Of a DNA stretch of 64,000 nucleotides, positions 1 to 32,253 are shown in pieces (position 1 is the stretch's first letter; each line of letters starts with the position of its first letter). The stretch covers positions 10,978-74,977 of the forward strand of contig CACXMS010000004.1 of the NCBI GenBank assembly GCA_902768795.1, given 5' to 3'. The stretch comes from an uncultured Eubacteriales bacterium. GTDB taxonomy: Bacteria > Bacillota > Clostridia > Christensenellales > CAG-138. Below the pieces are notes generated by a model. The model had not been told where the DNA came from, searched no databases, and worked only from the letters and a program-made list of their open reading frames with translations. The translations under genes were made by a program, and so were the position numbers.

Positions 1-2606
1 AAACTCGGAACGCCTTTCACCAACGCGATCTGCAAAGTCTCCGTTTCCTCATACGCTTCATTCTTCCCGGTGTGCTTCTCGATTTTTTTGTATCCTTTGT
101 ATGTAATCTCCGTATAGGGAAGCAGCTCCCGACATTTTGCAAGCAGCGCTTCTCTGTCGCCGTTCCGATCCGGGATCGACTCCAGCAATCCTATGGCCTC
201 CGTAAGGGACATTTGCTCCGCTTCGTCGATTTGTCTGTAAACCGCATCGGCATACCGTTCGTCTGCGTCCAAAAATCCGGGAATCTTTTTGTACAATCCC
301 GCCGCTCCCGAGGGATTCTCTTCTTCCGCCAGTCTTGCATTGATATAGGTTCCGTATTGGGAAGCGTCCTGATAATCGCCGAGCGTAAAGAAGCATTTTT
401 TCGCGTCGGTCAGCGCTTCTTTTTCAAGCAAGGTCTTTCCGGCTGCATAAATGAGTTCCCGGTGTTTCTCGAGATACGATTTGGGGGCTGTTTGCAGAAT
501 ACTCACATCGATCTCGGATCCTGTCAATGCATTTCGGATCAATGCGTCATAGGATTGTTCCACGATCGCTTCCGATTCCCGATATCCGTTTAAAGCCGAA
601 AAAGCTTCGATTGCTTCCGTATATCTTTCACTTTCAAAAAGTGCAAGGGCTTCGGAATACGCTTTGTCAAGCTTCGCATTTTCGATCAGAGATTGACTGT
701 CCTGATAGTCGTCCAATCCATTCAGCAGTTCAATGGATTGATCGTACTCGCCGGCTTGATACCGTTCTTTTGCCCAAAGATACTTTCCGTTTATGACATA
801 CACCGCGCTGTCCTTATACCCGTTCAGCGCTTCAAACGCCGTGATTGCTTTCTCATACTGTCCGGCGTTATAAAGATTCATGGCAGCATTATACTTCTGA
901 TTCGGGATGATAACCGTTGTCAGCACGATGATAAGCGCAACGAAGGCAAGGATGCTCGCAAGAACGATCGCAATGATTTTCCTGCGCTTCTTGGCCGCCT
1001 TTTCTTCCGCGATCCGTTCTTCCTCCGCTTTGCGCTCGCGTTCCAGCCGATTCGCTTCTTCCTTCGCTTTGAGCGCTTCGATCTTACGCCGGCAGGCAAG
1101 AATCTTTTCCTCCGCGTCCTTCCAGCCGGGAATGCTTTCAAACAGACGGATCGCTTCCCGCTGCTTTTCGACGGAATCCACAACGGCCGCTTTCCATGCC
1201 CGGGAATAGATCCTGTTCTTCCGTTCCTCTTCCTCTTTCTGTTCGCACACGGCCGCTTGCTCTTTTGCGTCCTTATACGCCGAAATGCTTTGGAACGCGG
1301 CTGCGGCTTTTGAAAAATCATACGTGTCCTTCAGCCGGATCGCTTCCTGATAGGCGTTTTCCAGCCGCTCGTTTTCATTTCGCCCGTTGATAAAGGCGAT
1401 ATCTTCGGAAAGCTTTGCCTTCAGCTTTTCATCTCCGAAGCGGTATGCCTTTTTATAATTTCCGGAATCGTCAAACGGCTCGTCCGCGTTTTTCAGTCCG
1501 TCCCACGTCCGAACGCGCAGCTGTGCCATCAGCTTGCCGAGATATGCTTCCGCGTTTTCGGGGTCGAGGTCGAGGACTTTCTCGCAGTATTCGTCTGCGC
1601 TGTCCCATTCCCCGTCCTCCAGGAACATAAAGGCGCGGCGAAGCAGCGGCGCCGTATTGGTCTGCGCCGCCTGCTGAATGACCGTTTCGCGGACGGAGCT
1701 TTTCGGCTCGTCGGGCCTGACGATCTTTTTGATCCCGCGGATCAGATCCTGCATAAAGCCGAGCTTACTCATATCCTGCGCCTGCAGATGCGAAAACTCC
1801 TCCGGCAGATCGTAGGGGTCCATATCGCGGTACGCAGGGATCAGCGTCTTTTTCGCGCCCGCCTTAATCAGCGCAAGATACCGGCTCCACTCGTTTTTCA
1901 CCCAGACGGCGTTGAAATGCTCCGGCTTCGTGCCGAGGACGACCATTGCCTTTGCGGAGTTCAGCGCGGCAAAGATGTACGGCTCGTATGCCGTGCCAAG
2001 CTTGTCCTCAAGCGTGATGCGCGAGAAGAAGACCTTGAAGCCCTCGTTGGTGAGTTGATGATAGAGGTCTGTCGCAAGCACGGAATCCGGCGTGCGGCGG
2101 CCGTTCGTGTCGGTCTCCTTGTAGCAGATGAACACGTCAAACGGTTCTTCCTTTGCTGAGATTTCTAAGATTCCCTTCTGGATCTCGTTGATCGCCTTTG
2201 CCTCGTCCTCATAGACCGAGCGCTGCAGCGCGTCCGCGTTTTTCAGCGCGGATTTATAATCCTCGTCGTCGAAGATCGATGTGAACTGCGCGCGGTTGAC
2301 CGTCGGCACGCGGCGATGCGTTGCGGGGTCCTCCACGTACTCGATGCCGTAGCGGCACAGCACGATCGACCAGTATGTTTCGGCGTCGGTCGGATCCTCG
2401 TTTAAGATGTTCTCATAGATCGACATCGCCTTGTCGAACTCGTTGTTGCGGCGAAAATGGTTTGCGCGGTCGTAAAGATTCGTTTTGCGGTCGGAATCGA
2501 GCCGCGGCAGCGTCTGCTTCGTTCCGCAGCTGTCGCATACGCCGACCGTATCGCCCTCGTTGAACTCGATCGTGCCTCCGCACATTTTGCATTTGAAGAT
2601 TGCCAT
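1..2606 (-). CDS. Membrane-spanning TIR-domain protein (zinc ribbon, TIR, coiled coil, one TM helix, C-terminal GYKDS-type repeats); 3' end beyond window
   Basis: Own minus-strand translation from ATG 2604-2606 (AGGGGG RBS upstream) gives 868 codons with no stop to the window edge, hence absent from the ORF track. MAIFKCKMCGG..VCDSCG ribbon. FDVFICYKETD..VFFSRITLE..AVWVKNEWSRYL TIR-like core. KKRRK + IIAIVLASILAFVALIIVLTTVII TM helix. Then YEKAITAFEALNGYKDS-type repeats. Confidence 0.8.
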   Translation of the reverse strand, partial: MAIFKCKMCGGTIEFNEGDTVGVCDSCGTKQTLPRLDSDRKTNLYDRANHFRRNNEFDKAMSIYENILNEDPTDAETYWSIVLCRYGIEYVEDPATHRRVPTVNRAQFTSIFDDEDYKSALKNADALQRSVYEDEAKAINEIQKGILEISAKEEPFDVFICYKETDTNGRRTPDSVLATDLYHQLTNEGFKVFFSRITLEDKLGTAYEPYIFAALNSAKAMVVLGTKPEHFNAVWVKNEWSRYLALIKAGAKKTLIPAYRDMDPYDLPEEFSHLQAQDMSKLGFMQDLIRGIKKIVRPDEPKSSVRETVIQQAAQTNTAPLLRRAFMFLEDGEWDSADEYCEKVLDLDPENAEAYLGKLMAQLRVRTWDGLKNADEPFDDSGNYKKAYRFGDEKLKAKLSEDIAFINGRNENERLENAYQEAIRLKDTYDFSKAAAAFQSISAYKDAKEQAAVCEQKEEEERKNRIYSRAWKAAVVDSVEKQREAIRLFESIPGWKDAEEKILACRRKIEALKAKEEANRLERERKAEEERIAEEKAAKKRRKIIAIVLASILAFVALIIVLTTVIIPNQKYNAAMNLYNAGQYEKAITAFEALNGYKDSAVYVINGKYLWAKERYQAGEYDQSIELLNGLDDYQDSQSLIENAKLDKAYSEALALFESERYTEAIEAFSALNGYRESEAIVEQSYDALIRNALTGSEIDVSILQTAPKSYLEKHRELIYAAGKTLLEKEALTDAKKCFFTLGDYQDASQYGTYINARLAEEENPSGAAGLYKKIPGFLDADERYADAVYRQIDEAEQMSLTEAIGLLESIPDRNGDREALLAKCRELLPYTEITYKGYKKIEKHTGKNEAYEETETLQIALVKGVPS

Positions 2607-2681
2607 GCTGCCCCCTGTTGATCCTGTTCGCTTGCTTCCTGAACCTGCGCTTTGAACGCGCTTCTGCCCGAAAAGCCGGTC

Positions 2682-4184
2682 TTATGAAATGGTGTTCAGA
2701 TCGATCCAGAGCGCCGGGCGGACGGCGCCGTTCATGTTGCGAAGATAGCTGCCGAACGCGTTGACGCTGCCGTCGCTGCCGACCAGCGAAACGTAGTTCA
2801 CGCTGGTGCCGGACGTTCTCAGCCACCACCAGCTCGTGCCCTGCTCGCCGACAAACTCCTTGTTGCTCACCGCTGCGCCCTGCGCGATTGCGTACGCGGT
2901 CGCAACGCCTTTTCGCTGCTCATCCGAGGAAAAATACAGGTTCGCCTCCCGGATGCCGAGCACGAACACCTTATCGGGCGTATTCGGGCCGGCGGGCGTG
3001 CTGCGATAGGACGGGTTTTTCTCCCCGATAACCGTAGTGGTCCGGATCATCTTCTGCTCGTCCGCATTGAACGCGGCGCCCAGGAAGGTTCCGTTCAGCC
3101 AGCCGCGCAGAGAACAGGTGCTCCAGTTCGCGCTCGCAAAGACGGAATGGAACGGCTGACAGTCCAGCGCGTACCGGCTGATCACGAGAATCCGGTTGTT
3201 ATCCTTGGAAAGGACGGTCCATTCGATCGGCTCTTTCCCGTCTGCGGCGTCGTTGTCCTGCTCATAGCGGCCGAAAAGAACCGTATCCCCTTTCTTGGCC
3301 GTTTTGAGCGTGTCCCGATAATACAGCGGCATGGCTTCCTCTATCTTCGCCGCGCTCTCCCGGTAGCCGGACAGCGCCGTAAACGCTTCGATCGCTTCGC
3401 GGTACGAGCCGCCCTCCAGCAGCGCTTCCGCCGCGGCATACCGCTGATCGAGAATCGCATTTTGGCAGTTTACGATCTGCTGTGCGCTGTCCTTGTATCC
3501 GTCCAGCGCCGCAAACGCCGCGATCGCTTCCTCAAACTGTCCGGCTTCGTACAGCGCCAGCGCCGCGCCGTATCTGCATTCCGTGATCCTGTCTTCGCTG
3601 TCCTTATATCCGTTCATCGCCGTAAACGCCGCGATCGCTTCCTCAAACCGCCCGGCTTCATACAGCGCCGCCGCATCGTCGTACTTCTGATCCCGGATCG
3701 CGGTCTCGCAAGCTTCGATCTGCTGTTCGCTGTCCCGATACCCGTTCATCGCCGTAAACGCCGCGATCGCTTCCTCGTACCGCCCGGCTTCATACAGCGC
3801 CGCCGCATCGTCGTACTGCCGGTCCCGGATCGCCGTTTTGCACGCTTTTATCCGCTCTTCGCTGTCCTTGTATCCGTCCATCTCCGTAAACGCCGCGATC
3901 GCTTCCTCGTACTGCCCGGCTTCCGAAAGCGCGACCGCCTTGCCGTAATTGAGCTCCGGGAGGACGAACCGGACGGCCAGCACAGCCAGCGCGGCGATCA
4001 GCACGACGCACGCAACGACGACGCCGACAACGATCCCTTTCGATTTGCGCTTTTTTCCTGCGCCGCCGGTCCCCTCCGGCAGCGTCTGCTTCGCGCCGCA
4101 CGCTTTGCAAACGCCTTCCGTCTCTCCCTCGTTCCACTCGACCGTGCCGCCGCACTTATCGCATCTGATCTTCGGCATTTTCAT
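2682..4184 (-). CDS. Zinc-ribbon / single-TM / repeat protein with C-terminal DUF6273-like domain (paralogous scaffold to the TIR neighbour)
   Basis: 500-aa ORF; ATG 4184 with GGGAGAA RBS. RCDKCGGTVEWNEGETEGVCKACGAKQTLP ribbon, TM GIVVGVVVACVVLIAALAVLAV, five YEEAIAAFTxMxGYKDS repeats. C-terminal GDTVLFGRYEQD..IEWTVL..WSTCSLRGWLN resembles DUF6273 (recalled, not searched). Confidence 0.8.
   Translation of the reverse strand: MKMPKIRCDKCGGTVEWNEGETEGVCKACGAKQTLPEGTGGAGKKRKSKGIVVGVVVACVVLIAALAVLAVRFVLPELNYGKAVALSEAGQYEEAIAAFTEMDGYKDSEERIKACKTAIRDRQYDDAAALYEAGRYEEAIAAFTAMNGYRDSEQQIEACETAIRDQKYDDAAALYEAGRFEEAIAAFTAMNGYKDSEDRITECRYGAALALYEAGQFEEAIAAFAALDGYKDSAQQIVNCQNAILDQRYAAAEALLEGGSYREAIEAFTALSGYRESAAKIEEAMPLYYRDTLKTAKKGDTVLFGRYEQDNDAADGKEPIEWTVLSKDNNRILVISRYALDCQPFHSVFASANWSTCSLRGWLNGTFLGAAFNADEQKMIRTTTVIGEKNPSYRSTPAGPNTPDKVFVLGIREANLYFSSDEQRKGVATAYAIAQGAAVSNKEFVGEQGTSWWWLRTSGTSVNYVSLVGSDGSVNAFGSYLRNMNGAVRPALWIDLNTIS
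3321..3935 (-). repeat. Tandem ~132-nt (44-codon) intragenic repeats, about 5 units, two nearly identical at DNA level
   Basis: Units starting near 3601 and 3733 match almost base for base (..cgttcatcgccgtaaacgccgcgatcgcttcctc..cccggcttcatacagcgccgccgcatcgtcgtac..). Flanking units are more diverged. Confidence 0.8.
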
Positions 4185-4212: not shown

Positions 4213-4240
4213 ATTATATCATATTTTTCGAAAACGTAAA
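4213..4240 (-). promoter_or_regulatory. Sigma-A-type promoter for the 2682-4184 gene
   Basis: Minus strand reads TTTACG, 16 nt, TATAAT (preceded by TGA), about 28 nt upstream of the ATG. Confidence 0.5.
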
Positions 4241-4293: not shown

Positions 4294-4328
4294 AAAAAAA
4301 AGAAGATCCCCCTGTCAAAGGGATCTTC
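4294..4328 (-). terminator. Rho-independent terminator after the ABC exporter pair
   Basis: Minus strand reads GAAGATCCC, 9-nt loop, GGGATCTTC, then TTTTTTTT. Confidence 0.8.
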
Positions 4329-4402
4329 CAAGCGTGCCGAAGATGCTTTCGGAATGCAAAGCAATCTGTCGGGGAGGGCGAAAAGCGCCCGATCTATGCC
4401 GC

Positions 4403-6322
4403 TCAGCTCAACTCGAACGCGCCGGTATAGAGCTGATGATACTTGCCCTTTTGGGCCAGCAGCGCATTGTGTTCGCCGCGCTCGATGATCTCGCCGTGCT
4501 CGAGCACCATGATGCAGTCCGCGTTGCGTACCGTCGAAAGCCGGTGCGCGATCACAAATACCGTGCGTCCCTTCATCAGCGCGTCCATGCCCTTTTCGAT
4601 GAGCTTTTCGGTGCGCGTGTCGATCGAGCTTGTCGCTTCGTCGAGGATCAGCACCGGCGGATCGGAAACCGCGGCCCGCGCGATCGAGATCAGCTGCCTC
4701 TGCCCCTGCGAAAGGTTCGCGCCGTCCGCCACAAGCTGCGTGTTGTACCCCTCAGGCAAATGCGAGATGAAGAAATGCGCGTTCGCAATCTTGGCGGCAC
4801 GGATGCAGTCTTCGTCGGTCGCGTCGAGCCGGCCGTAGCGGATGTTCTCCATCACGGTCCCCGTAAACAGGTGCGTATCCTGCAGAACCATGCCGAGCGA
4901 ATGTCTCAGGTCGTCCTTTTTGATCTCGCGGACCGGGATGCCGTCGTAGGTGATCGTGCCGTCGGTGATGTCGTAGAACCGGTTGATCAGGTTCGTGATC
5001 GTCGTTTTGCCTGCGCCGGTCGAGCCGACGAACGCGATCTTCTGTCCCGGATGCGCGTACAGCGTTACGTCGTTCAATACCTGCTTTTTGCCGTCGTACG
5101 AAAAATCGACGTCGGTAAAGCGCACGTCGCCCCGCAGCGGGATCAGCTCATTTTCGCGCTTCCACGCCCATTTACCGGTGCGCCGCGCGGTTTCGGTCAG
5201 CGTTCCGTTCTTCTCCTCGACGCGCACCAGCGTAACCGTGCCCTCGTCCGTTTCGGACGGCATGTCGATCAGCGCGAATACGCGCTCCGCGCCCGCCAGC
5301 GCAAGCAGGATCGAATTGAACTGCATCGAAATCTGCGAAATGCGGTTGGCGAACTGACGGATGTACTGCAAAAACGCGATCAGAGCCGCGCTCTGCACAA
5401 GCAGGATCTGATGGCTTGCAAAGAAGGTTCCCTCCGCCAGAAACGGCTCCCCCGGCACGGGGGCGGCCAGCAGCACGCCGACCGTGCAGATCAGCGCGTA
5501 GAAGATGTGCGACAGGTTGTTCATCACCGGGCCGACAATGTTTGCGAACGTATTCGCGTCGGTGGCGACCGTGCAAAGCTCGCCGTTCATCGCGTCGAAC
5601 GCGGCGAGGCCCGCTTTTTCATGGTTGAACACCTTGACGACCTTCTGCCCCTCCATCATCTCCTCGATGTACCCGTTCACGCGGGAGATCGCCTTCTGCT
5701 GTTTCTGGAAGTTTTTGCGGCTCTTGCCGCCGATGATCCGGATCACATAGAAGATGCAGACGCACATCACGATCACGACGAAGAACAGCGGGATCGACAG
5801 ATAGATCATCATGCCGATATAGGCCACGATGCTCACGACCGAGATCAGCATCTGCGTGATCGAGTTCTGCACCATTTCGCGGACCGCGTCGATATCGTTG
5901 GTGTAATAGCTCATCAGTTCGCCGTGCGTGTGTCCGTCGAAGAACGATACGGGCAGCTTCTGCATCTTGGCGAACATCTCCTTCCGCATCGCGCACATGA
6001 TGCGCGCCGAGCACAGGAGCATCAGCCGGTTAAACAGAAAGTTCGTGCCGATGCCGATCGCGTACAGCGCGCCCATGCCGATCAAAAGCGCCGAATAGCG
6101 CGCGGTATCGGCGTTCGTCCCGGCCTCCAGAACCGCAACGAGCGGGTCGAGCATGTAATAGGTCAGCGTCGTCGCCGCGGAATACACTAAGATGCCCAGC
6201 AGCGCAAGTACAAGCTGCGCCTTGCACTCCCGATAGTACCCCATCAGCCGCACCAGCGTCTTCAGCGGGTTTTCGGCGTGTCTGCCGCCCATCTTGCTGT
6301 CAAACGAAGATCCTCTCGGCAT
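4403..6322 (-). CDS. ABC transporter ATP-binding/permease protein (type I exporter half-transporter)
   Basis: 639 aa. N-terminal 6-TM region. Walker A GSTGAGKTT, signature LSQGQRQ, Walker B ILILDEATS. Start overlaps the upstream stop (TAATG). Confidence 0.9.
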   Translation of the reverse strand: MPRGSSFDSKMGGRHAENPLKTLVRLMGYYRECKAQLVLALLGILVYSAATTLTYYMLDPLVAVLEAGTNADTARYSALLIGMGALYAIGIGTNFLFNRLMLLCSARIMCAMRKEMFAKMQKLPVSFFDGHTHGELMSYYTNDIDAVREMVQNSITQMLISVVSIVAYIGMMIYLSIPLFFVVIVMCVCIFYVIRIIGGKSRKNFQKQQKAISRVNGYIEEMMEGQKVVKVFNHEKAGLAAFDAMNGELCTVATDANTFANIVGPVMNNLSHIFYALICTVGVLLAAPVPGEPFLAEGTFFASHQILLVQSAALIAFLQYIRQFANRISQISMQFNSILLALAGAERVFALIDMPSETDEGTVTLVRVEEKNGTLTETARRTGKWAWKRENELIPLRGDVRFTDVDFSYDGKKQVLNDVTLYAHPGQKIAFVGSTGAGKTTITNLINRFYDITDGTITYDGIPVREIKKDDLRHSLGMVLQDTHLFTGTVMENIRYGRLDATDEDCIRAAKIANAHFFISHLPEGYNTQLVADGANLSQGQRQLISIARAAVSDPPVLILDEATSSIDTRTEKLIEKGMDALMKGRTVFVIAHRLSTVRNADCIMVLEHGEIIERGEHNALLAQKGKYHQLYTGAFELS

Positions 6323-8133
6323 TACGCATCCACCTCCTTCGTCTGCGACGCATAGACCTCGCGGTAGATCGTCGACCGCTGCATCAGCTCGTCATGCGTG
6401 CCCACGTCGGAAATCCCGCCGTGCTCCATCACGATGATCCGGTCGGCGTACATCACCGACGCGATGCGCTGCGCGATGATCAGCTTGGTCGTTCCCTGCA
6501 GCGACTCCCGAAGCCCCTTGCGGATGCGTTCGTCGGTCGCGGTGTCGACCGCGCTCGTCGAGTCGTCGAGAATCAGAATCTTCGGCTGCTTCAGGATCGC
6601 GCGCGCGATGCAGAGCCGCTGCTTCTGCCCGCCCGAAACGTTGCTCCCGCCCTGTCCGAGGTCGGTGTCGTATCCTTCCGGGAACTGCATGATAAAATCA
6701 TCCGCACAGGCGATCCGGCACGCTTCGCGGATCTGTTCGTCCGTCGCGTTCGGATTGCCCCAGCGCATATTCTCGCGGATGCTGCCCGAGAACAGCATGT
6801 TCTTCTGCAGCACCATCGAAACGCTGTCCCTCAGCTCGACGAGATCGTACTCGCGCACATCGTGTCCGTCGATGCGGATCGCGCCGTCCAGTACGTCGTA
6901 CAGCCGCGGAATCAGTTGAACAAACGTCGATTTGCCTTCGCCCGTGCCGCCGATGATGCCGACCGTTTCGCCGGCGTTGATGTTCAGACAGATATCCTTC
7001 AGGTTCAGCACCTCGGGATTGTTCGAATAGCTGAAATTGACGTGATCGAACTCGATCTCTCCGCGTGTAACCTTCAGCGTACTGTTTTTGGGGGAAACGA
7101 TGTCAAGCTCCTCGTTGAAAATCTCATTGACGCGGTCAAGCGAGGCCTTCGTCATCGAAAGGCCGATCACCAGGAACGACAGCATCAGAAGGGAGGAGAT
7201 CACCTGCGTCGAATAGCTCATCAGACTCGTGAGGTCTCCGATGTTCAGCGTCGATCCCGGCTCGATGACTTTCATGCCGCCGAGCGCAAGCAGAACCAGC
7301 GTACAGGTCCACATGATGCCGAGCTGAATCGGGTTCGCCAGCGAAAACAGCTTTTGCGCGTGAATCTGCGCTTTCTGGAGATCGTCGGCCGAATCGTTGA
7401 ACTTTCCGATCTCGTGCTTCTCGCGCACAAACGATTTCACAACGCGCGCGCCGATCAGATTCTCCTGCACCGCGCCGTTCATGCTGTCGTACTTCTTCAG
7501 CATGACTTCAAACCGCTTGAATCCGACGCGGATCATGACATACATCACCGCCGCGATCACGGGAATCGCGAACACGAAAATCACCGCAAGCTCCGCGTTG
7601 ATCCGAAACGCCATAGTCGCCGCGAGAATCAGCATCACGGGCGTGCGAACAAAAATCCGCAGAAGCTGCTGGTAGATGTTCTGGAGGTTGTTGACGTCGG
7701 TCGTCGTCCGCATCACAAGCGACGAGGTCTGAAACCGGTCGGTGTTGCGAAACGAGAACGACTGAATGCGTTCAAACAGCGCGTGGCGAAGGTTCTTCGC
7801 AAACCCCATGCTCGCCACAGCCGACGTGCGCGCCGCCAGCGCGCCGAACGTCAGCGAAAGCAGCGACGCCAGAACCATCAGCCCGCCGGTCCAGAGCACA
7901 AACTGCAGATTGTTTCCGATCGGCAGCAGCGAAAGAAGCTCCTTGAGCTGATAGGTTTCCTCGTGATACAGTCCGCCGTCCACGAGCGCCGCCATCAGAA
8001 GCGGAATCATCACCTCGAGCGCGACTTCGCCGATCATCAGAAACGGTGTGAAAAACGCAGGCAACCGGTACCCCGCCGTACAGGGCAGAAGCGCCGAAAT
8101 GCCTTGATACTTTTTTGTCGGTTTCCGTTCCAT
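6322..8133 (-). CDS. ABC transporter ATP-binding/permease protein (partner half-transporter)
   Basis: Walker A GGTGEGKST, signature VSGGQKQR, Walker B ILILDDSTS. The track start 8196 is a TTG lying inside the -35 box. Trimmed to ATG 8133 (MERKPTKK) behind an AGGAAG RBS. Confidence 0.85.
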   Translation of the reverse strand: MERKPTKKYQGISALLPCTAGYRLPAFFTPFLMIGEVALEVMIPLLMAALVDGGLYHEETYQLKELLSLLPIGNNLQFVLWTGGLMVLASLLSLTFGALAARTSAVASMGFAKNLRHALFERIQSFSFRNTDRFQTSSLVMRTTTDVNNLQNIYQQLLRIFVRTPVMLILAATMAFRINAELAVIFVFAIPVIAAVMYVMIRVGFKRFEVMLKKYDSMNGAVQENLIGARVVKSFVREKHEIGKFNDSADDLQKAQIHAQKLFSLANPIQLGIMWTCTLVLLALGGMKVIEPGSTLNIGDLTSLMSYSTQVISSLLMLSFLVIGLSMTKASLDRVNEIFNEELDIVSPKNSTLKVTRGEIEFDHVNFSYSNNPEVLNLKDICLNINAGETVGIIGGTGEGKSTFVQLIPRLYDVLDGAIRIDGHDVREYDLVELRDSVSMVLQKNMLFSGSIRENMRWGNPNATDEQIREACRIACADDFIMQFPEGYDTDLGQGGSNVSGGQKQRLCIARAILKQPKILILDDSTSAVDTATDERIRKGLRESLQGTTKLIIAQRIASVMYADRIIVMEHGGISDVGTHDELMQRSTIYREVYASQTKEVDA

Positions 8134-8166
8134 TTTTCTTCCTGAATTCCCCATATATTGTTTTAC

Positions 8167-8196
8167 AGTATAGCATATCCCCTCCCGAAGTTGCAA
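8167..8196 (-). promoter_or_regulatory. Promoter of the ABC exporter operon
   Basis: Minus strand reads TTGCAA, 18 nt, TATACT. Confidence 0.55.
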
Positions 8197-9505: not shown

Positions 9506-9643
9506 CAGGCCGGCAAGAACGGGCTTGGAATCCGCGTTTTCGGCGCATGATCGAAGAAAAGACGGTTTTTCCGTCTTTTCCTCCTGCAAGTATTCTTTTC
9601 CCAAACCCGCCAAAAATGGTCCGGACCCGTTATTGGCAGTCTG
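9506..9643. repeat. MITE-like intergenic element, copy A (138 bp)
   Basis: Imperfect 19-bp terminal inverted repeats: CAGGCCGGCAAGAACGGGC on the left, reverse complement of the right end CAGACTGCCAATAACGGGT. Internal hairpin GAAAAGACGG/CCGTCTTTTC. Homologous to 32062-32253 and 50055-50145. Confidence 0.7.
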
Positions 9644-9651
9644 AATTCCGA

Positions 9652-24403: not shown

Positions 24404-26266
24404 ATGTCAAACTTGACGGAGCTGGAGCTCTACTATTTCAACGAGGGAACGTCAACGACGCCGTACAAGGCCCTCGGTTGTCACCGCGTAGAACAAAACG
24501 GAATCCCGATGTGGCGATTCTCCGTCTGGGCACCGAGCGCAAAGCGCGTCGCCGTCGTCGGAGATTGGAACAGCTGGAACGATACCGCCGATCTGATGAC
24601 GCCGATCGGAAGCACCGGCGTCTGGGAATGCTGCATCGGCATTGCCAGGGAGCAGATGCTCTATAAATACTCCATTCTCGGCGCGGATAACGTGACGGTC
24701 TGGAAGGCCGATCCCTACGCTGTGCGCGTCGAACCGAACGGCTCGGCCTCCATGGTATGGGAGTGCGGCGAATACCCCTGGACGGACGGAGAATGGCTGG
24801 AAAAGCAAACGAACCGGCACACGCAGCCGATGAACATTTACGAGGTGCATCTCGGCTCCTGGAAGAAAGGGCTTTCGTACCGCGAGCTCGGCGACGAGCT
24901 GGTCGATTACGCCGTCGATATGGGGTATTCCCACATCGAGGTCATGCCGCTGATGGCGTATCCTTACGGGCCGAGCTGGGGATACCAGGTGACCGGCTAC
25001 TACGCGCCGACCGCGCGTTACGGCACGCCGGACGAGCTCAAGTATCTCGTCAACCGCGCGCACGAAAAAGGGCTCGGCGTCATCATGGACTGGGTTCCGG
25101 CGCACTTTACGCGCGATGCGTACGGCCTTGCCCGGTTCGACGGAACGCCGCTGTACGAGCATCCCGATCCCCGCAAGTCCGATATGAAGCAGTGGGGCAC
25201 GCTGCTGTTCGACTACGGCCGGACGCAAGTGAAGAGCTTTTTGATCGGCAGCGCGGTCTACTGGCTGAAGGAGTTCCATTTCGACGGACTGCGCGTGGAC
25301 GCTGTTTCGTGTATGCTGTATCTCGATTACGGCCGCAACGACGGCGAATGGATCCCGAACTGCTTCGGCGGACGCGAAAATCTTGACGCGATCGCGCTGT
25401 TCAAGCGGCTCGGCGAGGTCATTCACGGTATGCCCGGCGGCAAGATGCTGATCGCCGAGGAGAGCACGGCGTTCCCGCACGTAACGGACCAGAACGGCGA
25501 TTCGCTCGGGTTCGATTACAAGTGGAACATGGGCTGGATGAACGATACCCTCTCCTATATGGGCATGGACTCGCTCTATCGCAAGTGGCACCATGACAAG
25601 CTGACGTTCTCCCTGATGTACGCGTTTTCCGAGCATTACATCCTGCCGTTCTCCCACGACGAAGTCGTCCACGGCAAGCTGTCGATGCTGAATAAGATGC
25701 CCGGCGATTACTGGCAGAAATTCGCGCAGCTCCGCCTTCTGTACGCCTATCAGTTCGCGCATCCGGGCAAAAAGCTCACGTTCATGGGCATGGAGCTCGG
25801 CCAGTTCATCGAATGGCGGTTCGACGATTCGCTCGACTGGCTGCTGCTCGAATATCCGAAGCATGTTGAAATGCAGCGTTTTGTACGCGAGCTGAACCAC
25901 TTCTATCACGATACGCCGGCGCTTTATGAGCGCGACGACGAGTGGCAGGGCTTTGACTGGGTCGTCGTCGACGACACGGTGCATTCGGTCTGCTCCTTCA
26001 TCCGGCGCGACAAGGCCGGAAACGTGCTGCTTTGCGCTTACAACTTTACGCCCGTCCCGTGGGACGATTACCGCATGGGCAGCGAGCGCGGCGGCGTTTA
26101 CACCGAAGTATTCAATACCGACGAGCCGCGCTTCGGCGGCACGAACAATTATCATAACGGCACGGTTTCTACTGTGAACGAACAGCAGGGCCGCTTCGCG
26201 CAGTCTGTTCATCTGAAACTACCGCCTTACGGCGCTGTTTATCTATCGTTCATCCCAAATCCATAA
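24404..26266 (+). CDS. glgB: 1,4-alpha-glucan branching enzyme
   Basis: 620 aa. GH13 motifs [32 protein letters not shown]. Confidence 0.95.
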
Positions 26267-26285
26267 AGGCGAAAAGGAGACTGCT

Positions 26286-27515
26286 ATGAAGAAAAAAATT
26301 GTTGCCATGCTGCTTGCGGGCGGCCAGGGCAGCCGTCTCGGCATCCTGACCTCTCACATGGCGAAGCCGGCCGTACCGTTCGGCGGAAAGTACCGCATCA
26401 TTGACTTTCCGCTTTCCAACTGCGTCAATTCCGACATCGACACCGTCGGCGTTTTGACGCAGTACCGGCCGCTTGCGTTGAACGCCTACCTCGGAACCGG
26501 CCAACACTGGGATCTCGACCGCAGCAGCGGCGGCGTCTTTGTGCTGCCTCCTTACATGACCGAAAAAGACGGCCGCTGGTACAGCGGAACCGCGAACGCG
26601 ATCTGGCAGAACCGCGAGTTCATCGATCAGTACGATGCGGAATACGTGCTGATTCTCTCGGGCGACCACATCTACAAGATGGACTACCATAAGATGCTGC
26701 AGTTCCACATCCAGAACCGCGCGGCGGCGACGATCGCGGTCTTTCGCGTACCGCTTGCCGAGGCGCACCGCTTTGGCATCATGAACACGGACGAAAAGAA
26801 CAACATCACTTCGTTCGAGGAAAAACCGAAAAACCCCAAGAGCGGCAACGCTTCGATGGGCATTTACATCTTCAACTGGAAAACGCTCCGCCGCTATATG
26901 GAGAAGGACGACGGCGATCCCGCTTCCGAAAACGACTTCGGCAAGAACATCATTCCCGCCATGCTGAACGCGGGCGAAAAGATGATCGCCTATCCGTTCG
27001 ACGGATACTGGAAAGACGTCGGAACGATCACGAGTCTCTGGGAAGCGAACATGGACATGCTCGGCAACCCGCCGGTGCTCGATCTGAACGATCCGAAATG
27101 GCGCATCTATACGCATAACCTCGCGCTGCCGCCGCACTATATGGACCGCACCGCAAAGGTCTCCGACAGTCTTGTGACCGAAGGAAGCGTCGTCCGCGGC
27201 GTTGTGAAGCATTCCGTGCTGTTCGCCGGCGCGCATGAGGACATCTATACCGAGATCACCGATTCCGTCGTGTTCCCGAACGCCATGATCGGCAAGAACT
27301 GCACCGTGAAGAAGGCGATCATCGGTGAAAACGTTGTGATCGGCGACGGCTGCACGATCGGCGGGCCGCTCCGCGAGGGCGAAACGGTCGACAACCGGCT
27401 GACGGACGATATTACCCTGATCGGCAACGATGTCACGATCCCCGCCGGAACCTATATTCCGCAGGGCGCCGTCGTCAACGCCGATACGCTCCATCTGTTC
27501 ACAAAGGAGGCCTGA
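26286..27515 (+). CDS. glgC: Glucose-1-phosphate adenylyltransferase
   Basis: 409 aa. [26 protein letters not shown]. Confidence 0.95.
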
Positions 27516-27518
27516 CGT

Positions 27519-28643
27519 ATGATCCACGATACCTTTGCTCTCATCTATACGGGCGACAACAACCCCCTGCTCCGCGAGTTGACGCTGTCCCGCTCCGTGG
27601 CAGCCGTACCGTTCGGCGGACGCTACCGCTGCATTGACTTTATCCTCAGCGATATCGTCAATTCCGGCATCAACAACGTCGGCGTGATCATGCAGAAGAA
27701 CTACCACTCCCTGATGGACCATCTCGGATCCGGCAAGGAATGGGACCTCAACCGCAAGCATGACGGTATGTTCATCCTCCCGCCCTTTATGACGAAGGAC
27801 AACACCGGCGTCTTCCGCGGCGACATCGAAGCGATCCATTCGGTCATCACCTATATCCGCCGCAGCCCGCAGAAATACGTGCTGTTCAGCGGCGCGCACA
27901 CGATCTTCAACACCACGTTTGAGGACATGCTGATTCACCACATCTCGACCGGCGCGGATATCACGATCATGTACAACAACGAACCGCATTTCTCCGCCGA
28001 GGATCAGAACCGCGACCTGCGGCTGATCATGCGGGAGGACGAACGGGTTCTGGAAATGGAGTGGAATCCTTACCGCCCGCGCACGAACGCGCGTTCGTGC
28101 GACGCGATGATCATGGAAAAGAAGCTTCTGGAGTACCTGATCGAAGAAGCGTACGCGCGCGGCGATTCCGACTTTACGCGCGATATCCTGCAGCGGCTCT
28201 GCGGCACGCTGAAGATTTTCGGCTGGCGCTACGACGGCTATGTGGCGCGGCTTGACTCGATCAACACCTACTATAAGTGCAGCATGGACATGCTGAACGT
28301 CAACTACGCGCGCGATCTCTACAAGCACGACACGCCGATCGTTACGAAGGTCAAGGATCAGCTCTCCGCCAAGTACGGCCCGAACGCGGACGTTTCCAAC
28401 TCGATGCTCGCGGACGGCTGCAACATTGACGGCGCAGTTTCCGATTCGATCCTGTTCCGCGGCGTCACCGTCGCCGAGGGCGCAAAGGTCACCAACAGCA
28501 TCCTGCTGCAGGGATCCACGGTCGGCGCGGGCGCCGTGCTCGACCATGTGATCTGCGACAAAAACTGCGTGATCCGGCCCGGCCGCTCGCTGATCGGCTA
28601 CGAAAACTTCCCGATCGTATTGAAAAAAGGTCAGACGGTCTGA
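27519..28643 (+). CDS. glgD: Glucose-1-phosphate adenylyltransferase regulatory subunit
   Basis: 374 aa paralogue of GlgC lacking the GGxGxR motif (VAAVPFGGRYRCIDF). Canonical position after glgC. Confidence 0.85.
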   Translation: MIHDTFALIYTGDNNPLLRELTLSRSVAAVPFGGRYRCIDFILSDIVNSGINNVGVIMQKNYHSLMDHLGSGKEWDLNRKHDGMFILPPFMTKDNTGVFRGDIEAIHSVITYIRRSPQKYVLFSGAHTIFNTTFEDMLIHHISTGADITIMYNNEPHFSAEDQNRDLRLIMREDERVLEMEWNPYRPRTNARSCDAMIMEKKLLEYLIEEAYARGDSDFTRDILQRLCGTLKIFGWRYDGYVARLDSINTYYKCSMDMLNVNYARDLYKHDTPIVTKVKDQLSAKYGPNADVSNSMLADGCNIDGAVSDSILFRGVTVAEGAKVTNSILLQGSTVGAGAVLDHVICDKNCVIRPGRSLIGYENFPIVLKKGQTV

Positions 28644-28672
28644 CCGTAAAACGCAACATAAAGGAGAACCGC

Positions 28673-30145
28673 ATGAAAGTACTGTTTTGTGCAAGCGAAT
28701 GCTTCCCGTTCGTGAAGACCGGCGGGCTTGCCGACGTTGTCGGTTCGCTTCCGAAGGAGCTTCTGAAACAGGACTGTGACGTCCGCGTCATGATCCCGAA
28801 ATACCGCGTGATCGACTGGTCGTATATTACCGCGATGGAGCACATCTGTCATTTCCAGCTCCCGTTCGGAGACGGCAGTGTTTTCTGCGGGATCGACTCG
28901 CTGGAATATGAGGGCGTTCGCTTCTATTTTATCGACAACCTTGCGATGTTCGGACACGACGGCGTTTACACGGGCGACGAGCAGGAGGGCTACCGCTATG
29001 CGTTCTTCTGCCGCGCAGTGCTCGACGCGCTGCCGAAAGTCGATTTCTTCCCCGACGTGATCCACTGCAACGACTGGCAGACCGGCCTGATTCCCGCGCT
29101 GCTGAAGATGCAGTATGCCAACGATCCGGATTACGCGAAGATCAAGACGGTCTACACGATCCACAACCTCCGGTTCCAGGGGCTCTACCGCTGGGATCGG
29201 ATCTCCTCCGTGCTGCATCTCGACGGTCGGTATTTCACGCCCGACGGGCTTGAATTCTACGGTCTGCTGTCGTTCATGAAGGGCGGTATCATCTACGCCG
29301 ACCGCATCACGACGGTCAGCCCGACGTATGCCCGGGAGATTTGCATGGAATACTACGGCGAACGGCTCGACGGCCTGCTCCGTGCGCGCAGCTACTCGCT
29401 GTCCGGCATTCTGAACGGCATCGACACGCAATCCTACAACCCGGCGACCGACCCCGCGCTGCCGGAGCATTACAGCATCCGCAACCCGCGCGTCAAAAAG
29501 TCCATCAAGACGGCGCTGCAAAAGGAGCTGGGGCTTGCCGAGCGCGACGTTCCGATGCTTTCGATCGTTTCACGTCTGACCGATCAGAAGGGGCTCGACC
29601 TGATCGCCTGCGTGCTGAACGAGATCCTCTCGCTCGACGTGCAGTTTGTGATCGTCGGTCTCGGCGAGCAGCGTTATACGGATATGCTGCGCGACGCGCA
29701 GCGCCGTCACCCCGGCGCGGTCGTGCTGTGCAGCGTGCTCGATGAAAAGCTCGCCCGCCGCGTTTACGCCGCGTCCGACCTGTACCTGATGCCGAGCCAG
29801 TTCGAGCCGTGCGGTCTGAGCCAGATGATCGCCATGCGGTACGGCACGATCCCCGTCGTGCGCGAAACCGGCGGCCTCAAGGATTCCGTTCTCCCGTACA
29901 ACAAGTACACCGACGAGGGCACGGGCTTCTGCTTTATGAACTACAACGCGCACGAGATGCTGTATCAGATCGAAGACGCCGTGCGCTACTGGCGCAACGA
30001 TCCCGCCATGTGGAACCGCCTCGTGCATCGCGCGATGAAGGAGGACTTCAGCTGGAAGGCCTCCGCAAAGAAATATCTTGCGCTCTATAAAGAAATGCTC
30101 GGCCTTTCCCCTCGCGCCCGCAAGAAGGCGCCTGTGCAGGCATGA
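28673..30145 (+). CDS. glgA: Glycogen synthase (ADP-glucose type)
   Basis: 490 aa. MKVLFCASECFPFVKTGGLADVVGSLP, PSQFEPCGLSQM. Confidence 0.95.
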   Translation: MKVLFCASECFPFVKTGGLADVVGSLPKELLKQDCDVRVMIPKYRVIDWSYITAMEHICHFQLPFGDGSVFCGIDSLEYEGVRFYFIDNLAMFGHDGVYTGDEQEGYRYAFFCRAVLDALPKVDFFPDVIHCNDWQTGLIPALLKMQYANDPDYAKIKTVYTIHNLRFQGLYRWDRISSVLHLDGRYFTPDGLEFYGLLSFMKGGIIYADRITTVSPTYAREICMEYYGERLDGLLRARSYSLSGILNGIDTQSYNPATDPALPEHYSIRNPRVKKSIKTALQKELGLAERDVPMLSIVSRLTDQKGLDLIACVLNEILSLDVQFVIVGLGEQRYTDMLRDAQRRHPGAVVLCSVLDEKLARRVYAASDLYLMPSQFEPCGLSQMIAMRYGTIPVVRETGGLKDSVLPYNKYTDEGTGFCFMNYNAHEMLYQIEDAVRYWRNDPAMWNRLVHRAMKEDFSWKASAKKYLALYKEMLGLSPRARKKAPVQA

Positions 30146-32061: not shown

Positions 32062-32253
32062 CAGACTGGCAAGAATGGGCTTGGAAGCCGGTTTCTTCGC
32101 CCGAAGGCTGTACTGACGTTACGCCGAGAGCGAAAAACCGGCTAATTTTGCGGCAAATAATCGAAGAAAAGCGCGTTTGTGCGCTTTTCGTCCTTCAGGA
32201 ATTCTTTTCACATAGCTGCCGCAAAATGGTCCGGGCCCGTTATTGACGGTCTG
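32062..32253. repeat. MITE-like intergenic element, copy B (192 bp, with extra internal hairpin)
   Basis: Terminal inverted repeats: CAGACTGGCAAGAATGGGC on the left, reverse complement of the right end CAGACCGTCAATAACGGGC. Hairpin GAAAAGCGC/GCGCTTTTC. Extra stem 32087-32100 with 32130-32142. Right end overlaps the MFS stop codon. Confidence 0.7.

What the first reader, a model, noticed from the sequence alone, without database searches (positions are those of the whole stretch)
1..2606. Edge gene missing from the ORF track encodes a receptor-shaped TIR protein: cytosolic zinc ribbon + TIR, one TM helix, external repeat array
Translating the minus strand from ATG 2606 gives 868 uninterrupted codons to the window edge. 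Module order, read from the translation, starts with a CxxC-x14-CxxC ribbon (aa 6-27). A TIR-like core follows at aa ~155-285 (FDVFICYKETD, VFFSRITLE, AVWVKNEWSRYL). Its W235-x3-E239 has the same spacing as the W-x3-E catalytic glutamate of NAD-cleaving TIR domains. Next come a charged coiled coil, a KKRRK stop-transfer with a 24-residue helix (aa 543-567), and repeats of Y-E-x-A-I-x-A-F-x-x-L-x-G-Y-[KRQ]-[DE]-S. The positive-inside rule places TIR in the cytoplasm and the repeats outside, which is a Toll-like-receptor arrangement. To my knowledge, characterised bacterial TIR systems (Thoeris ThsB, CBASS/Pycsar TIR effectors, SPARTA) lack an external sensor array. No SIR2/SLOG, cyclase or Argonaute partner is visible in the 4 kb of flank available.
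Basis: partly seen in the sequence, partly recalled or inferred. Interest (0 to 1): 0.75.

Follow-up and report, generated by a model that had tools for sequence, protein, structure and literature searches.

The report
Membrane-spanning bacterial TIR receptor gene
The edge gene is real and encodes a single-pass membrane protein with a catalytically intact-looking TIR domain inside the cell and a variable sensor outside. It belongs to a very large uncharacterised family of gut and rumen Clostridia in which some relatives have their outer tip hypermutated by a retroelement.

Summary
The minus strand from ATG 2606 is open for 868 codons. A 99%-identical full-length protein has 929 aa.

Module order:
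- CxxC-x14-CxxC zinc ribbon.
- A conserved helical domain.
- TIR_2 (43.5 bits; cut-off 28) with invariant W235-x3-E239.
- TPR and coiled coil.
- KKRRK plus one TM helix (aa 544-567).
- An external TPR-like stalk and an orphan head.

The 'characterised bacterial TIR system' readings fail. There is no PADLOC hit and no ThsA, cyclase or Argonaute partner.

The gene belongs to a very large family, generically annotated 'TIR domain-containing protein'. It occurs in at least 588 places in species-representative genomes. Conservation falls steeply from inside to outside: TIR 86% median identity, ecto repeats 24%, head unmatched.

Relatives usually end in a C-type-lectin DUF6273 head. They usually sit in a cassette of SPFH protein, 4-TM protein, a variable defence-like gene, then the TIR receptor. 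In 7 of 34 testable lectin-headed loci an adjacent DGR (Avd, TR, RT) hypermutates the head, and natural alleles confirm this. The same ecto-module is also fused to Ser/Thr kinases.

The window copy is a solo, DGR-less variant. It is probably co-transcribed with a TIR-less Zn-ribbon-TM-lectin paralogue.

Most likely function, inferred only: outside-in sensing that switches on a TIR NADase.

The parts
1..2606 (-). 5' 868 codons of the TIR receptor gene; the full protein is 929 aa and the window edge cuts off the last 61 codons
   Evidence: Open frame. 99%-identical full-length P0001 and contig L001. M1 and the N-terminus MxIFKCKMCGG are conserved in homologues.
2508..2606 (-). N-terminal zinc ribbon, aa 1-33 (C6, C9, C24, C27)
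   Evidence: CxxC-x14-CxxC. The cysteines are invariant or nearly invariant. Four beta strands in the AF2 model. 78% nt identity to the neighbour gene's ribbon (repeat D5).
2151..2507 (-). Family-specific helical domain with a beta hairpin, aa 34-152; it contains one TPR-like hairpin at aa 44-78
   Evidence: TPR_14 at aa 44-78. pLDDT 80-94. Median 78% identity across 79 family members.
1707..2150 (-). TIR domain, aa 153-300; the W235-x3-E239 codons lie at 1890-1904
   Evidence: TIR_2 43.5 bits against a cut-off of 28. Foldseek top hits are all TIR domains with probability 1.00. E239 aligns with the alpha-C Glu of TLR15/TLR2 and flax L7 TIRs. W235 and E239 are invariant. Coordinates checked.
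978..1706 (-). Cytoplasmic TPR (aa 321-351), helical repeats including two degenerate 'G[YW]KDA' units, and a long charged helix (aa 498-538) that runs into the KKRRK stop-transfer
   Evidence: TPR_2 at aa 321-351. Model helices with pLDDT about 90. Motifs at aa 431 and 482.
906..977 (-). Single transmembrane helix, aa 544-567
   Evidence: KD 3.37 and the only hydrophobic peak; K+R is 7 on the N side and 1 on the C side. Sequence checked.
129..905 (-). Extracytoplasmic TPR-like helical stalk, aa 568-826, with 4 repeat units
   Evidence: Repeat motifs at aa 584, 621, 662 and 732. TPR_2, ANAPC3 and TPR_16 hits. Model pLDDT about 90. TPR solenoid fold hits. The same module sits in front of Amidase_3 and PG_binding_1 in P0328.
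3..128 (-). Start of the orphan C-terminal head domain (aa 827-929 in P0001), truncated by the window edge
   Evidence: No Pfam or PHROG hit. pLDDT about 35. No match in 79 family members. Shared only with P0002 and P0003.
2607..2681 (-). 75-nt intergenic spacer with AGGGGG 5 nt upstream of the ATG; no terminator-like site on this strand
   Evidence: Sequence. Terminator scan.
2682..4184 (-). Upstream paralogue without TIR: zinc ribbon, KKRKSK, TM (about aa 48-75), five 44-aa repeats, DUF6273 C-type-lectin head
   Evidence: DUF6273 84.8 bits. Translation. TM and repeats. The VR-like C-terminus is invariant in 14 natural alleles. No TR in the window.
4213..4240 (-). Promoter-like site upstream of the two-gene unit
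   Evidence: 10 of 12 consensus matches with an extended TG. This is a consensus match only.
4301..4329 (-). Terminator-like hairpin that ends the upstream ABC-transporter genes
   Evidence: 13-bp stem followed by a T run.

Best explanation
The gene encodes a type II (N-in, C-out) single-pass membrane receptor.

Shown:
- The architecture is cytoplasmic zinc ribbon, conserved helical domain, TIR with an intact alpha-C glutamate, TPR and coiled coil, one TM helix, an external TPR-like stalk, and a variable head.
- It belongs to a very large family spread horizontally through gut and rumen Clostridia and some spirochaetes.
- The signalling half of that family is under strong constraint and the head is swapped (C-type lectin DUF6273, RCC1 propeller, orphan domains).
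- In a subset the head is hypermutated by an adjacent diversity-generating retroelement.

Inferred:
- Ligand binding to the external head clusters or re-orients the receptors through the juxtamembrane coiled coil.
- That brings the TIR domains together and switches on NAD+ cleavage, giving either NAD+ depletion or a signal nucleotide. TIR enzymes elsewhere are switched on by oligomerisation in this way.
- The likely purpose is a conflict or immune response to something met at the cell surface, such as a phage, another cell or a host molecule.

The window copy is a solo variant. It has an orphan head, no SPFH cassette and no DGR. It is probably co-transcribed with a TIR-less Zn-ribbon-TM-lectin paralogue that may act as a co-receptor.
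For: Architecture and topology.

TIR fold and catalytic position:
- Pfam TIR_2 scores above its cut-off.
- Foldseek hits are exclusively TIR domains: L7, L6, Roq1, RUN1, TRR-2, MAL, AbTir, SPARTA.
- E239 aligns with the W-C-x-x-E glutamate of TLR and flax L7 TIRs.
- E239 is invariant.

Receptor-like conservation gradient, as median identity: TIR 86.5%, helical domain 78%, Zn ribbon 73%, TPR/coiled coil 47%, ecto repeats 24% (alignable in only 18 of 79), head matched in 0 of 79.

The ecto-module is extracytoplasmic and acts as a sensor:
- DUF6273 is the C-lectin receptor-binding and DGR-target domain of gut phages (PMC10743442, PMC11792537).
- The same stalk precedes Amidase_3 and PG_binding_1 in P0328.
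- The same TM plus DUF6273 module is fused behind a Zn ribbon and Ser/Thr kinase in P0354, P0365 and P0388; P0390 has the kinase, TM and DUF6273 but no N-terminal ribbon.

DGR evidence:
- A TR lies about 550 nt downstream, with 86-100% of mismatches at TR adenines, in L006, L007, L010, L025, L026, L027 and L076. That is 7 of 34 lectin-headed loci with enough flank.
- Avd and RT are identified.
- Natural 829-aa alleles are 97.6% identical yet hypervariable in the last 45 residues.

Conflict context in relatives:
- The cassette integrase, SPFH Band_7_1, 4-TM protein, variable slot, TIR receptor occurs in 45 of 58 testable loci.
- The variable slot holds ThsB/PDC-S66-like TIR and PDC-S31-like genes.
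- Mob_Pre lies next to three clustered copies.
Against: - No enzymatic or genetic data exist for any family member.
- The catalytic glutamate position is also occupied by Glu in TLR TIRs, which are scaffolds, so its presence does not prove NADase activity.
- By sequence the family's TIR is closest to a TLR TIR (E=7e-4). The AbTir/BtpA hits came from the stand-alone TIR that I had added to that profile.
- The TIR model is only moderate. pLDDT is 74.5 for aa 1-310, the BB loop is below 50, and TM-score to targets is 0.47-0.64.
- The window copy lacks everything that makes the relatives look like a conflict system: no c1/c2, integrase, Avd, RT or TR. Its alleles are 98.8-100% conserved. Its flanks are housekeeping genes.
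- The repeat motif occurs on both sides of the membrane.
- No PADLOC model matches the window's TIR protein, c1 or c2; the L018 orthologue has only a weak PDC-S66 hit (E=1e-5) over its TIR region.
Confidence: 0.5

Rival explanations
1. Scaffold TIR. The TIR domain has no enzymatic role. It serves as a homotypic interaction platform that recruits other TIR proteins, such as the stand-alone TIR found in the cassette of some relatives, or other partners. This is how metazoan TLR and MyD88 TIRs work.
For: - The best sequence match in the PDB is a TLR TIR.
- TLR TIRs carry the same W-C-x-x-E motif yet are scaffolds (established knowledge).
- A 141-aa ThsB/PDC-S66-like TIR lies directly upstream of the receptor in L018, and its cluster occupies that slot in 3 loci.
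- The extreme conservation of the whole 300-aa N-terminal module fits a multi-partner interface.
Against: - W235 and E239 are strictly invariant.
- Every prokaryotic TIR tested so far that keeps this Glu has been an NAD+-processing enzyme (my own knowledge, not tested here).
- The companion TIR is present in only a few loci and is absent from the window.
Confidence: 0.2
2. Envelope-stress or membrane-organisation module rather than immunity. The protein works with SPFH and membrane partners in the way B. subtilis YdjG/H/I (SamGHI) recruits PspA. It would sense cell-wall or membrane state through the TPR stalk, and the lectin or orphan head would bind the cell's own wall polymers.
For: - In 45 of 58 testable loci the gene follows a soluble Band_7_1 SPFH protein with a C-terminal SHOCT or zinc ribbon, and a multi-TM protein.
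[quoted passage not shown] YdjG starts MIISYKCPNC, which looks like a zinc-ribbon start (PMC8581546).
- The same stalk is fused to Amidase_3 and PG_binding_1.
- The window copy sits among housekeeping genes and is not variable.
Against: - Homology of c1 and c2 to YdjH and YdjI was not tested; this is a resemblance of composition only.
- DGR hypermutation of the head, the integrase and Mob_Pre context and the defence-like genes in the variable slot fit recognition of changing foreign ligands better than a constant self polymer.
- No pspA is seen in the cassette.
Confidence: 0.15
3. Surface adhesin or decoy whose main job is external. It would bind mucus, other cells or phage particles, as other DGR-diversified surface proteins do. 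The cytoplasmic part would serve only for anchoring, assembly or regulation of display.
For: - Surveys describe cellular DGR targets mostly as membrane-anchored binders of extracellular substrates (PMC8144416).
- DUF6273 heads are receptor-binding domains in gut phages.
Against: - An anchor does not need 540 residues that are the most conserved part of the protein, with the TIR at 86.5% median identity.
- The cytoplasmic position is interchangeable with a Ser/Thr kinase, which is a signalling output.
Confidence: 0.1

Closest known systems
Bacterial and plant NAD+-cleaving TIR domains (AbTir, BtpA/TcpB, flax L6/L7, RUN1, SARM1)
   Same: - Flavodoxin-like TIR fold.
- The W-x3-E motif, with the glutamate at the alpha-C position.
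- Activation by oligomerisation is the general rule for these enzymes (established knowledge). The coiled coil and TM arrangement here could supply it.
   Different: - No sequence-level affinity to AbTir or BtpA once the stand-alone TIR is removed from the profile.
- A 7-residue insertion after beta-A and a distinct BB loop.
- Embedded in a 929-aa membrane protein.
- Activity is untested.
Metazoan Toll-like receptors and IL-1 receptors
   Same: - Single-pass membrane protein with a solenoid-repeat ectodomain outside and TIR inside.
- The best PDB sequence match of the TIR is TLR15/TLR2.
   Different: - Inverted polypeptide order: type II, no signal peptide, TIR N-terminal to the TM.
- The ectodomain is TPR-like plus a head, not LRR or Ig.
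- Extra zinc ribbon and helical domain.
- No evidence of common descent of the whole architecture.
DGR-diversified C-lectin 'antigen sensors' of STAND/ternary conflict systems in multicellular bacteria (PMC10907252; PMC7159879; TLR-domain plus NTPase targets in PMC5758913)
   Same: In relatives, not in the window, a C-terminal C-type-lectin VR is hypermutated by Avd-TR-RT and is linked to a TIR domain.
   Different: - No NTPase (STAND or MoxR) and no vWA.
- The sensor is outside the membrane and is fused through one TM helix to TIR.
- The hosts are unicellular gut and rumen Clostridia.
- The window copy has no lectin head and no DGR.
Eukaryote-like Ser/Thr receptor kinases of Firmicutes (PASTA-kinase design)
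   Same: - The same logic of cytoplasmic output, one TM helix, external sensor.
- Direct relatives of the neighbour's ecto-module carry a Pkinase domain in the place of TIR (P0354, P0365, P0388, P0390).
   Different: The output is TIR, not a kinase. The sensor is a TPR-like stalk with a lectin or orphan head, not PASTA.
Thoeris, CBASS/Pycsar TIR effectors and SPARTA
   Same: A TIR domain is present. A weak NCBIfam ThcB4 match (21.9 bits against a cut-off of 220) reflects only the domain.
   Different: - No ThsA (SIR2/SLOG or Macro), cyclase or short Argonaute in the flanks.
- No PADLOC hit.
- Those TIR proteins have no external sensor.

Membership tests
TIR domain superfamily (Pfam TIR_2, PF13676) | Profile match above the curated gathering score | tested here: met
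   43.5 bits against 28, aa 158-281.
TIR domain superfamily (Pfam TIR_2, PF13676) | Flavodoxin-like beta-alpha fold resembling solved TIR structures | tested here: met
   The AF2 model has betaA-alphaA-betaB-alphaB-betaC-alphaC-betaD-alphaD-alphaE. The 20 best Foldseek PDB hits are TIR domains, probability 0.97-1.00 (1.00 for 18 of them) and TMt 0.16-0.64, lower where the target chain is much larger than a TIR domain. Model confidence is only moderate.
NAD+-cleaving TIR enzymes | Glutamate at the alpha-C catalytic position (W-x3-E) | tested here: met
   WVKNE at aa 235-239 aligns with WCQYE of TLR15/TLR2 and WCLME of flax L7. It is invariant in the family.
NAD+-cleaving TIR enzymes | Measured NAD+ hydrolase or cyclase activity that depends on that glutamate | not testable with these tools
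   Needs a biochemical assay with an E239A control.
Thoeris (ThsA + ThsB) | ThsB-type TIR together with a ThsA (SIR2/SLOG or Macro) partner | tested here: not met
   No PADLOC ThsB or ThsA hit. NCBIfam ThcB4 scores 21.9 bits against a cut-off of 220. The neighbours are a lectin paralogue, ABC transporters and housekeeping genes.
CBASS/Pycsar TIR effector or SPARTA | Adjacent CD-NTase or cyclase, or a short Argonaute with APAZ | tested here: not met
   None in the window flank or in the L001 downstream flank.
Metazoan-type Toll-like receptor | Type I topology: signal peptide, N-terminal LRR ectodomain, TM, C-terminal TIR | tested here: not met
   No N-terminal hydrophobic segment (maximum KD 0.22 in the first 60 aa). 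TIR is N-terminal to the TM. The ectodomain is TPR-like.
DGR variable (target) protein | C-terminal C-lectin VR with a cognate TR whose adenines account for the mismatches, plus RT and Avd | tested here: not met
   Window: the TIR protein has no lectin head. The neighbour has one, but the 64-kb window holds no TR, RT or Avd, and the neighbour's C-terminus is invariant in 14 alleles. The feature is met in relatives L006, L007, L010, L025, L026, L027 and L076. A remote DGR outside the window cannot be excluded.
SPFH - 4TM - TIR-receptor cassette (defined here from relatives) | Band_7_1 SPFH gene (c2) and a ~233-aa 4-TM gene (c1) directly upstream on the same strand | tested here: not met
   tblastn with 12 members each of c1, c2, c3, and the available Avd and RT sequences finds nothing in the window. 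The cassette is present in 45 of 58 loci with enough upstream flank.
Zn-ribbon - output - TM - external sensor receptors of Clostridia (defined here) | N-terminal CxxC...CxxC ribbon, cytoplasmic output domain, one TM helix with positive-inside flank, external repeat and head module | tested here: met
   for this protein. The same design with TIR, Pkinase or no output appears.

The most novel reading that the evidence does not exclude
This family is a bacterial outside-in immune receptor system. It would be a membrane-spanning TIR receptor whose extracellular head recognises phage or foreign surfaces and triggers NAD+-based signalling or suicide inside the cell. In a fifth of lectin-headed members the recognition site is continuously re-randomised by a dedicated retroelement. 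Functionally that is a Toll-like receptor with an antibody-like variable tip, working with an SPFH membrane scaffold. The window gene would be a germline-fixed member paired with a TIR-less co-receptor.
Probability: 0.3. Interest if true: 0.9.

Novelty: new variant of a known kind. Interest (0 to 1): 0.72.

Why it matters
Known prokaryotic TIR systems sense infection inside the cell or respond to a second messenger. A TIR enzyme wired through the membrane to an external, swappable and sometimes hypermutating sensor would show that bacteria also use cell-surface pattern recognition coupled to TIR signalling. That design was thought to be typical of animals.

The family is very abundant in human, livestock and rumen gut Clostridia: at least 588 loci in species representatives and more than 8,000 sequence clusters. 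Its function is therefore relevant to phage-host dynamics in the gut.

The DGR-linked members offer a natural system for evolving new binding specificities attached to a measurable intracellular output.

The work also gives a concrete, testable role to DUF6273 in cellular proteins. It defines a new conserved cassette (SPFH Band_7_1, 4-TM protein, variable gene, TIR receptor) that no defence catalogue lists.

Tried and rejected
- PADLOC on the TIR protein, its neighbours and the cassette partners c1 and c2 gave no system-level hit. The ABC transporters hit mads_3/mads_8, which I read as generic ABC ATPase similarity.
- A local DGR in the window was rejected. There is no TR/VR repeat, no RT or Avd and no allele hypervariability.
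- AbTir/BtpA-type affinity of the TIR: the strong hits were an artefact of including a canonical stand-alone TIR in the profile. The family-only profile hits only a TLR TIR.
- The window's gene pair (TIR receptor plus TIR-less lectin paralogue) as a conserved pair: only about 4 of 77 loci have a similar short paralogue nearby.
- Fold of the C-terminal head: the model has pLDDT about 35 there and there is no Pfam or PHROG hit, so no fold assignment was attempted.
- The full-length Foldseek search returned only generic TPR solenoids.
- Rfam scan of the window: no match.
- Literature: nine full-text searches and eleven papers read found no description of this family. The Science 2025 gut DGR paper was not held under its PMC id. 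Its preprint abstract concerns Bacteroides pili.
- The YdjGHI/SamGHI analogy for the cassette was kept only as a lead. Homology was not tested.


Full report

Yes. The minus strand from ATG 2606 reads 868 codons without a stop to the window edge. The gene is missing from an ORF list only because it runs off the window.

A 99%-identical protein, P0001, is 929 aa. Its contig L001 overlaps window 1-3224 at 98.3% nucleotide identity. So 61 codons are missing.

AGGGGG lies 5 nt upstream of the ATG. Homologues share the N-terminus MxIFKCKMCGG.

**2. Anatomy**

(a) aa 1-33 form a CxxC-x14-CxxC zinc ribbon. The cysteines are invariant or nearly so, and it models as four short strands.

(b) aa 34-152 form a family-specific helical domain with one TPR-like hairpin and a beta hairpin.

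(c) aa 153-300 form a TIR domain.
- Pfam TIR_2 scores 43.5 bits against a cut-off of 28.
- An AlphaFold2 model of aa 1-310 has mean pLDDT 74.5, with the BB loop below 50. It shows the canonical beta-alpha order.
- All its top Foldseek matches in the PDB are TIR domains: flax L7 and L6, Roq1, RUN1, Hydra TRR-2, MAL, AbTir and SPARTA. Probability is 0.97-1.00 (1.00 for 18 of the top 20) and TM-score to target is 0.16-0.64, lower where the target chain is much larger than a TIR domain.
- W235-V-K-N-E239 lies at nt 1890-1904. It aligns with W-C-Q-Y-E of a TLR TIR and W-C-L-M-E of flax L7. It is invariant in every homologue aligned.

(d) aa 301-543 hold a TPR, helical repeats and one long charged helix (aa 498-538) that runs into KKRRK.

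(e) aa 544-567 are the only hydrophobic segment. Kyte-Doolittle is 3.37, and the next peak is 0.96. Flanking K+R is 7 on the N side and 1 on the C side. There is no N-terminal signal-like segment.

(f) aa 568-826 form a confidently modelled TPR-like solenoid with pLDDT about 90.

(g) aa 827-929 form an orphan head with no profile hit and a poor model.

**3. Topology**

Several observations place the N-terminal 543 residues inside and the stalk and head outside:
- the positive-inside rule;
- the lack of a signal peptide;
- a zinc ribbon and TIR on the N side.

Independent support comes from relatives of the ecto-module.
- The same stalk precedes Amidase_3 and PG_binding_1 in P0328. Those domains act on the cell wall.
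- DUF6273 is the C-type-lectin receptor-binding domain of gut phage tail and 'tentaclin' proteins.

**4. Surroundings in the window**

The gene directly upstream on the same strand (2682-4184, 75-nt gap) is a paralogue without TIR. It reads zinc ribbon, KKRKSK, TM, five 44-aa repeats, DUF6273 at 84.8 bits.
- The two zinc-ribbon coding regions are 78% identical at the DNA level.
- A strong terminator-like hairpin (4329-4301) and a promoter-like site (4240-4213) precede the pair. No terminator-like site separates the two genes. A two-gene operon is therefore plausible, but it is not shown.
- Further upstream lie two ABC exporter genes.
- Downstream, from L001, lie an MBL-fold hydrolase, a SPOUT methyltransferase, YhfC, RadC and TyrRS.
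- No SIR2/SLOG, cyclase or Argonaute gene is present, and there is no PADLOC hit.
- Exact-sequence look-ups of window proteins give 'Clostridia bacterium' MAGs. Window GC is 58.5%.

**5. The family**

The word-indexed search saturated at 8,000 hits. The best 120 are 55-99% identical and mostly 800-1,000 aa. The only names given are 'TIR domain-containing protein' or 'TPR repeat protein'.

An exhaustive search with aa 1-310 found 4,057 50%-identity clusters at E<1e-30.

A scan of one genome per species found at least 588 loci. The hosts are Oscillospiraceae, Lachnospiraceae, Ruminococcaceae, Acutalibacteraceae, Anaerovoracaceae and others. They also include Sphaerochaetaceae and Treponema, which implies horizontal spread.

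Conservation falls from inside to outside:

| Region | Median identity |
|---|---|
| TIR | 86.5% |
| Helical domain | 78% |
| Zinc ribbon | 73% |
| TPR/coiled coil | 47% |
| Ecto repeats | 24% (alignable in 18 of 79) |
| Head | no match in 79 members |

Among 94 family proteins in 77 loci:
- heads are C-lectin in at least 46, RCC1-like in at least 13, and other in the rest;
- 78 have exactly one TM helix;
- 14 loci carry two or three copies.

**6. Genomic context of relatives**

I clustered all flanking ORFs of 77 loci. This revealed a same-strand cassette:
- a tyrosine recombinase, in 11 loci;
- c2, a soluble Band_7_1 SPFH protein with a C-terminal SHOCT or zinc ribbons;
- c1, about 233 aa, with four TM helices and a helical tail, and no known family;
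- a variable slot, with 14 different clusters;
- the TIR receptor.

The cassette is present in 45 of 58 loci with enough upstream flank.

The variable slot holds defence-candidate genes. L018 has a 141-aa TIR matching PDC-S66 (E=1e-40) and ThsB. L025 has a DUF2971 protein matching PDC-S31.

In L002, three family copies sit beside Mob_Pre and AAA_25 genes.

c1 and c2 match no PADLOC model. The window has none of these genes.

**7. Retroelement-driven hypermutation in relatives**

L025 carries the following genes downstream of the receptor gene:
- a bAvd/Avd gene (NCBIfam DivGenRetAVD 51.7 bits; Pfam bAvd 39.4);
- a template repeat;
- an RVT_1 reverse transcriptase.

The template aligns with the last about 125 nt of the receptor gene, and 16 of 17 mismatches are at template adenines.

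The same signature, with 86-100% of mismatches at adenines and the TR about 550 nt downstream, is present in L006, L007, L010, L026, L027 and L076. L027 has two receptor targets. That is 7 of 34 lectin-headed loci with at least 1.5 kb of downstream flank.

Eighteen natural alleles of an 829-aa member are 97.6% identical at the median. Yet they carry 3.7 alleles per column in the last 40 columns, against about 1.2 elsewhere. The pattern is WWWLRSPGxxQxxAAxVxxxGSVxxxGxxVxxxxxAVRPALWINL. So diversification is ongoing in nature.

In the window lineage, the neighbour's VR-like C-terminus is identical in 14 alleles. The TIR protein is 98.8-100% conserved. The only polymorphism is loss of one 44-aa repeat unit.

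**8. Modularity**

Relatives of the neighbour's ecto-module carry different cytoplasmic parts:
- TIR;
- Ser/Thr protein kinase, in the order zinc ribbon, Pkinase, TM, two DUF6273 (P0354, P0365, P0388; P0390 lacks the ribbon);
- an ABC ATPase;
- only a zinc ribbon.

A kinase in the equivalent position argues that the cytoplasmic domain is the output of a transmembrane sensor.

**9. Mechanism**

The architecture, topology, family structure and DGR targeting are shown. The rest is inference.

I infer that ligand binding outside changes the oligomeric state through the juxtamembrane helix. That would assemble the TIR domains into an active NAD+-processing form. The outcome would be NAD+ depletion or a nucleotide signal.

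I put this at about 0.5. The rivals are:
- a scaffold TIR (0.2);
- an envelope-stress module analogous to B. subtilis YdjGHI/SamGHI (0.15; PMC8581546; a resemblance of composition only);
- a pure adhesin or decoy (0.1).

Caveats:
- The glutamate is also present in non-enzymatic TLR TIRs.
- The family-only profile matches only a TLR TIR in the PDB.
- The AbTir/BtpA matches were caused by a canonical TIR that I had added to that profile.

**10. Comparison with what is known, and novelty**

- It is a member of the TIR superfamily.
- It is not Thoeris, CBASS/Pycsar or SPARTA, because the partners are absent.
- It is not a TLR homologue in architecture. The order is inverted and there is no LRR.
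- The nearest published concept is the DGR-diversified C-lectin 'antigen sensor' linked to TIR and other effectors in the STAND/ternary systems of multicellular bacteria (PMC10907252, PMC7159879, PMC5758913). Those are NTPase-based and mostly cytoplasmic, and none of those papers mentions Firmicutes members of this design.
- Nine literature searches found no description of a single-pass TIR receptor family or of the SPFH cassette.

I rate it a new variant of a known kind. The window gene itself is a plain, non-diversified, solo member. The interest lies in the family it exposes.

Noticed in passing
L018:7653-12556 and about 45 other loci (e.g. L025:7155-12571): A conserved same-strand cassette that no defence catalogue lists: (tyrosine recombinase), a soluble Band_7_1 SPFH protein with a SHOCT or zinc-ribbon tail, a ~233-aa 4-TM protein with no known family, a variable gene, then the TIR receptor. 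Its composition recalls B. subtilis ydjGHI/samGHI.
   Followed up: partly
L027:6046-8523 and L027:10001-12307: One DGR template repeat matches the 3' ends of two different TIR-receptor genes in the same locus, with 17 of 18 and 17 of 20 mismatches at adenines. That is one retroelement serving two receptor targets.
   Followed up: partly
L018:9552-9977: A 141-aa stand-alone TIR protein (PADLOC PDC-S66 1e-40, ThsB-like) sits directly upstream of the TIR receptor. It is a possible adaptor or second TIR. Its cluster occupies this slot in 3 loci.
   Followed up: partly
window 3340-3961 (inside gene 2682-4184): The 132-nt (44-aa) repeat units of the neighbour gene vary in copy number in nature. Alleles of 498 aa and 454 aa differ by exactly one unit.
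   Followed up: yes
P0354, P0365, P0388, P0390 (homologues of the neighbour gene's ecto-module): Receptor Ser/Thr kinases, in the order Pkinase, TM, two DUF6273 C-lectin domains, with an N-terminal zinc ribbon in P0354, P0365 and P0388 but not in P0390. This is a second output class on the same sensor design. I did not examine whether they are DGR targets.
   Followed up: partly
window 9537-9645, 50078-50147 and 32147-32188: A repeated intergenic element. It has a terminator-like hairpin (GAAAAG..CGTTTTTGCG..TTTTC) followed in two copies by a ~70-nt stretch that is 80% conserved. There is no Rfam match.
   Followed up: partly
window 54322-55088 (inside ORF 54208-56439, minus strand): Three tandem ~285-318-nt repeat units lie inside a 743-aa ORF with a signal-peptide-like start (MKRTLAIVLAL). 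It is probably a repeat-domain surface protein.
   Followed up: no
window 4403-8196: Two adjacent ABC_membrane plus ABC_tran half-transporter genes, a heterodimeric exporter. Their PADLOC hits to mads_3 and mads_8 look like generic ABC ATPase similarity.
   Followed up: no
window 24404-32034: A glycogen metabolism cluster (GlgB, paralogous GlgC/GlgD-like genes marked by repeat D6 at 26370 and 27603, and GlgA). Exact-sequence matches name the source as 'Clostridia bacterium' MAGs.
   Followed up: partly
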